Sequence record: OR846250.1
DNA from: a phage
Direction: 5' to 3' (one strand)
Length of the DNA: 1,172 nucleotides
Made by a program: the position numbers and the translations under genes. Shown here one piece after another: positions 1 to 1,172 of this stretch. Under the pieces are notes generated by a model, which saw only the letters and a program-made list of their open reading frames with translations, searched no databases and was not told where the DNA came from. The stretch's first letter is position 1. Every line of letters starts with the position of its first letter.

Positions 1-5
1 GCATT

Positions 6-29
6 AAAACCGCCCCATGAAGCGGGCGG
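6..29 (-). terminator. Terminator-like hairpin plus T-run overlapping the cos cleavage position (minus-strand sense)
   Basis: Plus 10-15 ccgccc pairs with 24-29 gggcgg (6-bp GC stem, 8-nt loop 16-23); on the minus strand the stem is followed by TTTT (plus 6-9 aaaa). The stem's 3' arm ends at position 29, the first base of the cohesive end. Could equally be a packaging-recognition structure; function uncertain. Confidence 0.3.
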
Positions 30-47
30 GCGAGGCGGGGAAAGCAC
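29..47. other. cos cohesive-end sequence (cosN) of a P2/P4-type phage: GGCGAGGCGGGGAAAGCAC
   Basis: Exact 19-mer ggcgaggcggggaaagcac read at 29-47. I recall this as the 19-nt 5'-protruding cohesive end shared by P2 and P4; recalled knowledge, not database-verified. Confidence 0.6.
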
Positions 48-189
48 TGCGCGCTGGCGGTGGTGCTGATTTTATTTTTTCAGCGCCTGAGCGCGTCGTG
101 ATGGCGTTTAGATTGTTCGCCGGGGCGTTGGTGTGTCTGTGGGATGTTTTGTGCGGTGGTGAGCGTGTGAGGGCGTGATGGCGGGTTGT
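48..189. promoter_or_regulatory. cos-flanking non-coding region, putative terminase recognition/binding region (cosB-like)
   Basis: No convincing ORF. Strong strand asymmetry (about 80% G+T on the + strand across roughly 108-190 by manual count). Exact 10-bp direct repeat cgtgatggcg at 97-106 and 174-183; exact 9-bp direct repeat gcggtggtg at 57-65 and 153-161. Function is inferred from position next to cos only. Confidence 0.3.
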
Positions 190-211
190 AAAAAAGCCGC
201 CCGCAGGCGGC
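190..211 (-). terminator. Rho-independent terminator immediately downstream of the portal gene
   Basis: Perfect 6-bp all-GC stem (plus 196-201 gccgcc pairs with 206-211 ggcggc) with 4-nt loop (202-205). On the minus strand this reads GCCGCC-TGCG-GGCGGC followed directly by TTTTTT (plus 190-195 aaaaaa). It begins 5 nt after the stop codon. Confidence 0.6.
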
Positions 212-216
212 GATGT

Positions 217-1172
217 TCAGCCGTTGTCAGTGTCCAGTGAGTAGTTTTTAAAGCGGATGACCTCCTGACCGAGCCAGCCGTTTATCTCGCGGATCCTGTC
301 CTGTAGCGGGATAAGCTCATTGCGGACAAAGACCTTTGCCACTTTCTCAATATCACCCAGCGACCCGACGTTCTCCGGCTTGCCGCCCATCAACTGAAAG
401 GGGATGCGGTGCGCGTCCAGCAGGTCAGCGGCGCTGGCTTTTTTGATATTAAAAAAATCGTCCTTCGTTGCCACTTCACTGAGCGGGATAATTTTAATGC
501 CGTCAGCTTTCCCCTGCGGGGCATAGAGAAACAGATTTTTAAAGTTGTTGCGGCCTTTTGACTTCACCATGTTTTCGCGAAGCATTTCGATATCGTTGCG
601 GTCCTGCACGGCATCGGTGACGTACATGATGTATCCGGCATGAGCGCCGTTTTCGTAATACTTGCGGCGGAACAGCGTGGCTGACTCATTCAGCCAGGCA
701 GAGTTAAGGGCGCTGAGATATTCCGGCAGGCCGTACAGCTCCTGATTAATATCCGGCTCCAGCAGGTGAAACACGGAGCCGGGCGCGAAGGCTGTCGGCT
801 CGTTGAAGGACGGCACCCACCAGTAAACATCCTCCTCCACGCCACGACGGGTATATTTGGCCGGTGAGGTTTCCAGTCTGATGACCTTACCGGTGGTGCT
901 GTAACGCTTTTCCAGAAACGCATTACCGAACACCAGAAAATCCAGCACAAAGCGGCTGAAATCCTGTTGCGAAAGCCACGGATGCGGGATAAATGTCGAG
1001 GCCAGAATATTGCGTTTAACGTAAATCGGTGAGCTGTGATGTACGGCAGCACGCAGGCTTTTTGCCAGACCGGTAAAGCTGACCGGTGGCTCATACCATC
1101 TGCCGTTACTGATGCACTCGACGTAATCCAGAATGTCACGGCGGTCGAGTACCGGCACCGGCTCACCAAAGG
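217..1172 (-). CDS. Q: Phage capsid portal protein, P2 gpQ-like (partial; N-terminus lies beyond the window's right edge)
   Basis: Single long open frame of 313 codons in the ORF track, with stop TGA at 217-219 (plus-strand tca). The frame stays open upstream of 1158 (codons read ...F G E P V P V L D...), and the codon at 1156-1158 is GTG, so the true start is outside the window. Product assignment rests on position and orientation next to the cos site plus my recognition of the protein as portal-like; not verified by alignment. P2 gpQ is about 344 aa from memory, consistent with roughly 25-30 missing N-terminal codons. Confidence 0.8.
   Translation of the reverse strand, partial: FGEPVPVLDRRDILDYVECISNGRWYEPPVSFTGLAKSLRAAVHHSSPIYVKRNILASTFIPHPWLSQQDFSRFVLDFLVFGNAFLEKRYSTTGKVIRLETSPAKYTRRGVEEDVYWWVPSFNEPTAFAPGSVFHLLEPDINQELYGLPEYLSALNSAWLNESATLFRRKYYENGAHAGYIMYVTDAVQDRNDIEMLRENMVKSKGRNNFKNLFLYAPQGKADGIKIIPLSEVATKDDFFNIKKASAADLLDAHRIPFQLMGGKPENVGSLGDIEKVAKVFVRNELIPLQDRIREINGWLGQEVIRFKNYSLDTDNG

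What the first reader, a model, noticed from the sequence alone, without database searches (positions are those of the whole stretch)
1..28. Window's left edge abuts the cos-proximal variable cargo locus of P2-like phages (old/tin position)
In P2 the genome right end, just across cos from Q, carries the non-essential genes old and tin. This position is reported as a variable hotspot where P2-like prophages carry diverse anti-phage systems. Only 28 bp of that side is in the window, so nothing can be called here, but any novel system tied to this sequence would lie immediately upstream of position 1. The window itself holds conserved structural and packaging DNA only.
Basis: established knowledge. 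Interest (0 to 1): 0.5.

Follow-up and report, generated by a model that had tools for sequence, protein, structure and literature searches.

The report
Conserved cos flank beside known P2 hotspot

Summary
The observation and the interpretation are both correct, and both are already published.

- **Window content:** window 29-47 is identical to the 19-nt cohesive end of phage P2. Window 1-28 equals P2 33547-33574 at 27 of 28 bases. The rest is the tQ terminator and the 3' 956 nt of portal gene Q on the minus strand.
- **What 1-28 is:** these 28 bases are not cargo. They belong to a cos core (window 1-54) shared with P4-like satellites and conserved in 186-type, Klebsiella and Ralstonia relatives.
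- **Where variation starts:** sequence diversity begins 1-9 nt left of position 1. Among 55 related loci, the gpA-to-cos gap is 1.5-5.7 kb, with 24 gene architectures. These include R-M, retron, SIR2-HerA, IetAS, Lamassu and several proteins with no family match.
- **Prior publication:** this is the gpA-gpQ hotspot of Rousset et al. 2022 (1,650 arrangements).
- **Nearest relatives:** five E. coli chromosomes (O157:H7 and related strains) at 1171/1172 identity all carry one 735-aa RloC-like gene, WP_000423599. It is listed as system #5, "RloC-like", in that paper.
- **Limit:** the window's own source was not found. The same portal fragment occurs next to at least 10 different cargos, so the real upstream content cannot be inferred.

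Low interest.

The parts
1..28 (.). Conserved right-hand flank of cos (equivalent to P2 33547-33574). After terminase cutting it forms the last 28 bp of double-stranded DNA at the genome's right end, next to the cargo slot.
   Evidence: 27/28 identical to P2. Window 1-60 occurs exactly in 75 IMG/VR contigs that differ completely further left. Shared with a P4-like satellite and with 186, Klebsiella, Midge, SW9 and Ralstonia RSY1 phages.
10..29 (-). Inverted repeat CCGCCC(10-15)/GGGCGG(24-29) abutting the cos nick. On the minus strand it reads as a weak terminator-like hairpin followed by TTTTAAT. Position 17, in the loop, is the only difference from the closest relatives.
   Evidence: Terminator-like hit. 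No unusual stability (z = -0.13). The stem is broken without compensation in 186, Midge and Kp4852 (C13A, G28A) and in RSY1 (G12A). This indicates conserved sequence, not conserved structure.
29..47 (+). 19-nt P2-type cohesive end (cos cut site at 28|29 on the top strand).
   Evidence: Identical to P2 cosL 1-19. Unique in the window, 0 expected by chance. Linear phage records start at window 29.
1..54 (.). [quoted passage not shown]
   Evidence: A class of E. coli matches covers only window 1-53/55. One of them, L091, lies between psu and gop-beta-int-tRNA-Leu of a P4-like satellite at 92.6% identity. Rousset 2022 states that P2 and P4 share a core cos signal.
48..195 (.). Non-coding spacer between cos and the Q terminator. 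It is the most divergent part of the window relative to P2. The mechanical 53-aa ORF at 17-178 crosses the cos cut.
   Evidence: Alignment to P2. The ORF has no Pfam hit. No Rfam family.
196..211 (-). tQ, the rho-independent terminator of the P-Q operon.
   Evidence: 6-bp all-GC stem plus TTTTTT. Corresponds to the annotated P2 terminator tQ at 160-181.
217..1172 (-). 3' 956 nt of portal gene Q (stop codon at 217-219). The gene runs off the right end of the window.
   Evidence: ORF list. Annotated as phage portal protein in all relatives. Pfam Phage_portal 2.6e-14.

Best explanation
The window is the cos-Q segment of a P2-like (Peduovirus) prophage of E. coli.

Shown: positions 29-47 are the 19-nt cohesive end, and positions 1-28 are the conserved DNA immediately right-end-proximal to the cut. 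Together with 48-54 they form the roughly 54-bp cos core that P2-like phages share with P4-like satellites. Homology between related elements stops 1-9 nt left of window position 1. There a 1.5-5.7 kb slot begins that runs to the stop codon of replication gene A and holds interchangeable cargo, mostly anti-phage genes.

Established knowledge: P2 terminase recognises this core and makes nicks staggered by 19 nt, so the 28 bp end up as the extreme right end of the virion DNA.

Inferred: the conserved flanks (gene A on one side, cos/Q on the other) act as homology arms for recombinational exchange of the cargo. This is why the same portal sequence is found next to many cargos. The promoter of leftward cargo genes lies outside the window (P2 old-tin mRNA starts 121-123 nt left of window position 1).

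In the closest relatives (1171/1172 identical) the slot holds a single leftward 735-aa RloC-like ABC-ATPase/anticodon-nuclease homologue. This is the most likely occupant upstream of this window, at about 50%, but it cannot be proven from the window.
For: cos identity and P2 coordinates. Linear phage genomes starting at window 29. Sharp homology break just left of position 1, with at least 30 unrelated upstream classes among 74 loci that share window 1-60 exactly. gpA-to-cos gap of 1455-5687 bp, 24 architectures, 52 protein clusters. PADLOC matches to type II R-M, retron RT_VI, SIR2+HerA, IetA/IetS, LmuA/LmuB, NsnA/B, PD-Lambda-5-like, PDC-S06/S28/S31/S39/S64/M18A. P4-like satellite sharing window 1-54. 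Conservation of the flank in 186, SW9, Midge, Klebsiella and Ralstonia phages. Published description of the same hotspot: PMC9122126 and PMC13586616. Five 99.9%-identical chromosomes all carry WP_000423599.1 in the slot. That protein is full-length Pfam AAA_13 (2.2e-110) and PADLOC PDC-S06 (1.6e-249), and has every RloC sequence hallmark. It is listed as hotspot system #5, 'RloC-like', 420 occurrences, in Table S5B of PMC9122126.
Against: The window's true source was not found. No collection holds a 100% match. The exact 317-aa portal fragment is linked to at least 10 different cargos in Logan contigs. The next-closest complete genome (98.4%) already carries a different cargo, DUF262 + IS5. 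The only difference from the O157-type prophage is at position 17, the part of the window nearest the hotspot, and A17 is the state in many lineages with other cargos. This could mark a recombination tract that brought in different cargo. Terminase binding to 1-28 is inferred from conservation and from sharing with P4; it was not tested here.
Confidence: 0.92

Rival explanations
1. Window 1-28 is already the first part of the variable cargo locus, that is, lineage-specific sequence that could tag a particular system.
For: Position 17 is polymorphic.
Against: Window 1-60 is found exactly in 75 contigs whose upstream sequences fall into at least 30 unrelated classes. The stretch is shared with P2, a P4-like satellite, 186, Klebsiella and Ralstonia phages.
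Confidence: 0.02
2. The 10-29 hairpin plus TTTTAAT on the minus strand is a working transcription terminator. It would back up tQ and shield leftward cargo genes such as old or the RloC-like gene from late P-Q operon read-through. That, not terminase binding, would be why the flank is conserved.
For: Terminator-like hit with 6 G-C pairs and 5 T in 8 bases. It lies downstream of tQ on the same strand, and cargo genes in P2 and in the closest relatives are transcribed leftward from their own start just beyond it.
Against: No stability beyond shuffles (z = -0.13). Stem pairs are broken without compensation in 186, Midge, Kp4852 and RSY1 while the sequence stays otherwise conserved. The stretch is equally conserved in a P4-like satellite, where psu lies to its left and is transcribed towards it, not leftward away from it. 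The T-run is short.
Confidence: 0.12
3. The slot upstream of this particular window holds something other than the RloC-like gene, possibly a protein with no known family. The A17 state would mark a recombination tract that entered from a different lineage.
For: The same portal fragment sits next to at least 10 cargos. Cargo already differs at 98.4% identity. A17 is shared with many lineages carrying other cargos. About a third of surveyed loci carry main proteins with no PADLOC or Pfam hit.
Against: All five relatives examined at 1171/1172 identity carry the identical RloC-like protein. L063 combines A17 with an RloC-like cargo. A single transition is most simply a point mutation.
Confidence: 0.45
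4. The 53-aa ORF at 17-178 (plus strand), annotated 'hypothetical protein' in some phage records, is a real gene spanning cos.
For: An ORF exists and is annotated in some records.
Against: No Pfam hit. It is cut in two in virion DNA. The region is G+C-rich, where stop codons are rare by composition, and it carries two 1-nt indels relative to P2. The ATG is GTG in P2 and in the closest relatives.
Confidence: 0.03

Closest known systems
Bacteriophage P2 cos site and right-end old/tin locus (NC_001895)
   Same: Identical 19-nt cohesive end. 27/28 identity in the right flank. Same order: cargo - cos - tQ - Q.
   Different: In the closest relatives the slot holds one RloC-like gene instead of orf91-tin-old. 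P2's own sequence diverges from other lineages immediately left of window position 1.
gpA-gpQ cos-proximal defence hotspot of P2-like prophages (Rousset et al. 2022, PMC9122126; PMC13586616)
   Same: Same flanking genes, same adjacency to cos, same kind of diversity. The exact protein of the closest relatives (WP_000423599) is in their Table S5A, and its type is system #5, 'RloC-like'.
   Different: Nothing differs. The window contains only the conserved border of this hotspot.
P4-like satellite cos-proximal hotspot
   Same: Shares window 1-54 (92.6% identity in L091) because P4 is packaged by P2 terminase.
   Different: In the satellite, psu lies left of the core and the variable gop-beta region lies on the other side of cos.
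RloC anticodon nuclease (Davidov and Kaufmann 2008, PMC2610378)
   Same: The cargo protein of the closest relatives has Walker A, the LSxGE signature, Walker B/D-loop, a CxxC in a long helical insert, and R-x3-E-x39-SH.
   Different: It lies outside the window. Activity is untested. No solved structure is related by sequence. PADLOC files it only as the candidate PDC-S06.
Phage 186 right end (tum / orf97)
   Same: Same conserved cos flank, and cargo at the same position between gene A and cos.
   Different: The cargo is the SOS-inducible tum operon plus orf97. The cohesive end differs at a few bases.

Membership tests
P2-type cos site | 19-nt cohesive-end sequence GGCGAGGCGGGGAAAGCAC | tested here: met
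   Window 29-47 is identical to P2 1-19. Unique in the window, 0 expected by chance.
P2-type cos site | Position: about 170 nt downstream of the portal gene Q stop, with tQ in between, and the right-end flank on the other side | tested here: met
   Q stop at 217-219, tQ at 196-211, cos at 29-47, flank 1-28 equal to P2 33547-33574.
P2-type cos site | Virion DNA ends map to this site | tested here: met
   Linear phage genome records begin at window 29 or end at window 28/47 equivalents. This holds for relatives, not for this window's own source.
P2-type cos site | Recognition and cleavage by P2 terminase; shared with satellite P4 | tested here: inconclusive
   Sharing with a P4-like satellite over window 1-54 is shown. 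Cleavage itself cannot be tested with these tools.
gpA-gpQ defence hotspot of P2-like prophages (Rousset 2022) | Locus bounded by replication gene A and cos/portal gene Q | tested here: met
   The Q and cos side is in the window. gpA lies 1.5-5.7 kb to the left in 55 related loci and in all annotated relatives. The gpA side of the window's own source is unseen.
gpA-gpQ defence hotspot of P2-like prophages (Rousset 2022) | Unrelated gene content between conserved flanks | tested here: met
   24 architectures and 52 protein clusters in 55 loci. 10 different cargos next to the identical portal fragment.
gpA-gpQ defence hotspot of P2-like prophages (Rousset 2022) | Cargo enriched in anti-phage systems | tested here: met
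   PADLOC hits for R-M, retron, SIR2-HerA, IetAS, Lamassu, Nsn, PD-Lambda-5-like and PDC candidates.
RloC family (cargo of the closest relatives, outside the window) | ABC-ATPase motifs: Walker A, signature, Walker B/D-loop | tested here: met
   GQNGAGKS at 30-37, LSEGE at 499-503, LIVIDDP at 531-537. Conserved in members only 52% identical. Pfam AAA_13 full length.
RloC family (cargo of the closest relatives, outside the window) | Coiled-coil insert carrying a CX2C zinc hook | tested here: inconclusive
   CPFC at 254-257 is invariant in all 10 members and lies in a Pro/Gly-poor, charge-rich stretch. No formal coiled-coil or structure prediction could be run on a protein from outside the window.
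RloC family (cargo of the closest relatives, outside the window) | C-terminal Arg-X3-Glu-X36-52-His triad, Ser often before His (PMC2610378) | tested here: met
   R642, E646, S685-H686, spacing 39. Conserved in all 10 members.
RloC family (cargo of the closest relatives, outside the window) | tRNA anticodon-loop cleavage and phage exclusion | not testable with these tools
The published table labels the type 'RloC-like'; I did not find a test of its activity.

The most novel reading that the evidence does not exclude
The unseen DNA left of position 1 in this window's actual source carries a cargo protein or system with no described family. Several occupants of the same slot in related loci have neither PADLOC nor Pfam matches. 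Under this reading, the A17 state would mark the recombination tract that brought the cargo in.
Probability: 0.12. Interest if true: 0.4.

Novelty: already known. Interest (0 to 1): 0.08.

Why it matters
It matters little for discovery. The finding correctly places the window at the border of a hotspot that has been mapped in more than 18,000 E. coli loci, and the window itself holds only the conserved border.

The practical value is as a signpost. The cos core (window 1-54) and gene A are reliable anchors for pulling out cargo from P2-like prophages. A fraction of that cargo in related loci still has no family assignment. The analysis also shows that the portal and cos sequence does not predict the cargo, so short contigs like this one cannot be used to infer a strain's defence content.

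Tried and rejected
- **Finding the source (failed):** no 100% match in 5,426 complete E. coli genomes (best 1171/1172). Among 75 IMG/VR contigs that share window 1-60, none matches the whole window. Exact window 1-200 is absent from GTDB representative genomes and JGI metagenomes.
- **Truncated portal product lookup:** it found 225 blocks of Logan contigs, but the ten read differ from the window at 32-118 positions.
- **Structural-element reading of the 10-29 hairpin (rejected):** no excess stability and uncompensated stem breaks in distant relatives.
- **Rfam:** no family at E <= 1.
- **53-aa ORF across cos:** no Pfam hit.
- **Solved structures for the RloC-like cargo:** only a spurious low-complexity match to ribosomal protein S3.
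- **NCBIfam for the same protein:** nothing above the cut-offs.
- **Correction:** in an early note I placed the single mismatch at position 18. Recounting puts it at position 17.

Full report
**What is in the window.** The 1172-base window has three parts: a G+C-rich non-coding stretch (1-216), then the 3' part of a long minus-strand ORF that runs off the right end (217-1172). The ORF is the portal gene Q of a P2-like phage. It is annotated as portal protein in every relative and matches Pfam Phage_portal (2.6e-14). The window is 96-98% identical to many Peduovirus genomes. It matches 2,185 of 5,426 complete E. coli genomes, and the best matches are seven E. coli chromosomes (O157:H7 and related strains) at 1171/1172.

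**Checking the observation.**
- The sequence GGCGAGGCGGGGAAAGCAC at 29-47 is identical to the annotated left cohesive end of P2, NC_001895 1-19.
- It occurs once in the window, against none expected by chance even with two mismatches allowed.
- Several phage records deposited as linear genomes start exactly at window 29 (H24-H30, H86-H99).
- In P2 the segment between replication gene A and cosR holds orf91, tin and old, and the old-tin mRNA starts at 33424/33426 and reads leftward.
- The P2 terminator tQ corresponds to window 196-211 on the minus strand.

**What the 28 bases are.**
- *Conserved, not cargo.* An exact search for window 1-60 found 75 IMG/VR contigs. After orienting them, the 60 nt left of window position 1 fall into at least 30 unrelated sequence classes, which share only a short (A)TGCAACT at -8 to -1. 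P2 itself diverges from these at -2. So the homology break lies 1-9 nt outside the window.
- *Part of the packaging signal.* A class of E. coli matches covers only window 1-53/55. One of them, L091, sits between psu and gop-beta-int-tRNA-Leu of a P4-like satellite, at 92.6% identity over 1-54. P4 is packaged by P2 terminase and shares only the cos core with P2 (PMC9122126). The same flank is conserved in 186, SW9, Midge, Klebsiella phages and Ralstonia phage RSY1.
- *The inverted repeat.* The flank contains CCGCCC (10-15) and GGGCGG (24-29), which the scan reports as a weak minus-strand terminator. It is no more stable than shuffles (z = -0.13). Its pairs are broken without compensation in 186, Midge and Kp4852 (C13A, G28A) and in RSY1 (G12A), while the surrounding sequence stays conserved.
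- *Reading.* I take this as conservation of a protein-recognition sequence, not of a structure. This is an inference; terminase binding was not tested.

**The variable locus next door.**
- *Size and diversity.* In 55 loci that hold both a gene A homologue and cos, the gap is 1455-5687 bp. It contains 24 gene architectures built from 52 protein clusters.
- *Known systems.* PADLOC scans of representatives gave type II methyltransferase plus restriction enzyme, retron RT type VI, SIR2 plus HerA, IetA/IetS, LmuA/LmuB, NsnA/NsnB, PD-Lambda-5_A-like proteins, a SIR2 fusion, and the candidates PDC-S06, S28, S31, S39, S64 and M18A.
- *Unassigned proteins.* About a third of the tested clusters had no PADLOC hit, and nine of ten of those had no Pfam hit either.
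- *Other relatives.* Phage 186 holds tum and orf97 at the same place.
- *Prior publication.* This reproduces the hotspot described by Rousset et al. 2022: the cos-proximal region between gpA and gpQ, with 1,650 arrangements in 18,150 E. coli loci (PMC9122126). A 2026 survey confirms it (PMC13586616).

**What most likely lies upstream of this window.**
- *Occupant in the closest relatives.* In five of the seven chromosomes that are 1171/1172 identical, the slot holds one leftward gene, WP_000423599.1, 735 aa, annotated 'AAA family ATPase'.
- *Family matches.* It matches Pfam AAA_13 over its full length (2.2e-110) and PADLOC PDC-S06 (1.6e-249).
- *RloC hallmarks.* Measured against the defining features of RloC in PMC2610378, it has Walker A (30-37), a CxxC (254-257) in a long helical insert, LSEGE (499-503), Walker B/D-loop (531-537) and R642-x3-E646-x39-S685-H686. 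All are conserved in homologues only 52% identical.
- *Already catalogued.* The same accession appears in Table S5A of Rousset 2022. Its type is listed as hotspot system #5, 420 occurrences, 'RloC-like', in Table S5B.

**Why the cargo cannot be assigned to this window.**
- No collection holds an exact copy of the window.
- The truncated 317-aa portal product encoded by the window is on record in 225 blocks of Logan assemblies. These are contigs that end at the same base as the window's right edge. The ten places read carry ten different cargos and differ from the window at 32-118 positions.
- The next-closest complete genome (98.4%) carries a DUF262 protein plus IS5.
- The window's only difference from the O157-type prophage is at position 17, the part of the window nearest the hotspot. 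A17 is the state in many lineages with other cargos. It could be a point mutation, or the edge of a recombination tract.
- I put the RloC-like gene at about one half.

**Comparison and verdict.** The window is a member of the P2-type cos/Q segment, and its left edge borders the published gpA-gpQ defence hotspot. All features that could be tested are met. Nothing here is new. The hotspot, its diversity, and even the specific occupant in the closest relatives are already catalogued. Interest is low. The residual novelty lies only in the unseen cargo of the unknown source, and in the uncharacterised proteins that occupy the same slot in related loci.

Noticed in passing
window 17: The only difference between the window and the seven closest E. 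coli chromosomes (and P2) is A instead of G at position 17, in the loop of the 10-29 inverted repeat. It is the variable site closest to the hotspot border. A17 is common in lineages with other cargos, so it may mark a recombination tract, not a point mutation.
   Followed up: partly
window 1172 (right edge); L080-L089, position 1-3 of each locus: The 317-aa portal fragment ending exactly at the window's right edge is on record in 225 blocks of Logan assemblies. In 63 of these blocks the longest carrying contig is under 2 kb. Many independent assemblies therefore break at this base. Together with the left edge falling at the hotspot border, this suggests the window is a short contig bounded by assembly-graph branch points, created by co-resident P2-like or P4-like elements.
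   Followed up: partly
L090 3143-5045 (E. coli strain 1500, NZ_CP040269.1): Here the cos core is followed by two cargo genes (a hypothetical protein and a DUF262 protein) that lie between cos and the portal gene. About 860 bp without annotated genes lie between gene A and cos. Cargo can therefore sit on the Q side of cos as well.
   Followed up: no
Hotspots of L010, L012, L018, L028, L029, L041, L055 (clusters c0 c3 c1 c5) and of L017, L031, L040, L064, L065, L076, L089 (clusters c8, c4): Two recurrent architectures (7 and 6-7 loci) are built from proteins with no PADLOC or Pfam match. The first is a 257-aa protein with an N-terminal hydrophobic segment plus a 260-aa protein with a C-terminal hydrophobic segment. 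The second is a 226-aa plus a 313-aa protein.
   Followed up: partly
L085 1356-4286 (+), L088 1310-2923 (+), L082 1269-2797 (-), L051 hotspot (440 aa), L032 and L054 hotspot (311 aa), L049 hotspot (376 aa), L062 hotspot (333 aa): Further single or paired cargo proteins in the same slot have no PADLOC hit and no Pfam hit, or only a weak one. They include a 976-aa protein (AAA_22, weak) and a 537-aa protein with nothing on record.
   Followed up: partly
-40 to -9 relative to window position 1, in most of L003-L077 and in phage 186 (L092, last 90 nt): Many otherwise unrelated upstream classes share a degenerate motif of the form G(T/C)CAG-N3-CTGG-(T/C)G(C/T)G about 22-37 nt left of the window. 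It is also present in 186 but absent from P2 and from the O157-type prophage. It may be an outer, dispensable part of the packaging signal, or a remnant of older recombination junctions.
   Followed up: no
window 17-178 (+): A 53-aa ORF spans the cos cut and is annotated 'hypothetical protein' in several phage records. It has no Pfam hit. Its start codon is GTG in P2, and the region has two 1-nt indels relative to P2. It is probably a product of G+C-rich composition.
   Followed up: partly
L100 3383-4363 (E. coli PEC41): An IS5 element is inserted in the hotspot between a DUF262 (HEC-06/Orf5-like) cargo gene and cos.
   Followed up: no
L002 8965-11348 (E. coli CV261): The replication endonuclease (gene A) of this otherwise intact-looking prophage is annotated as frameshifted. 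The prophage may therefore be defective while keeping the RloC-like cargo.
   Followed up: no
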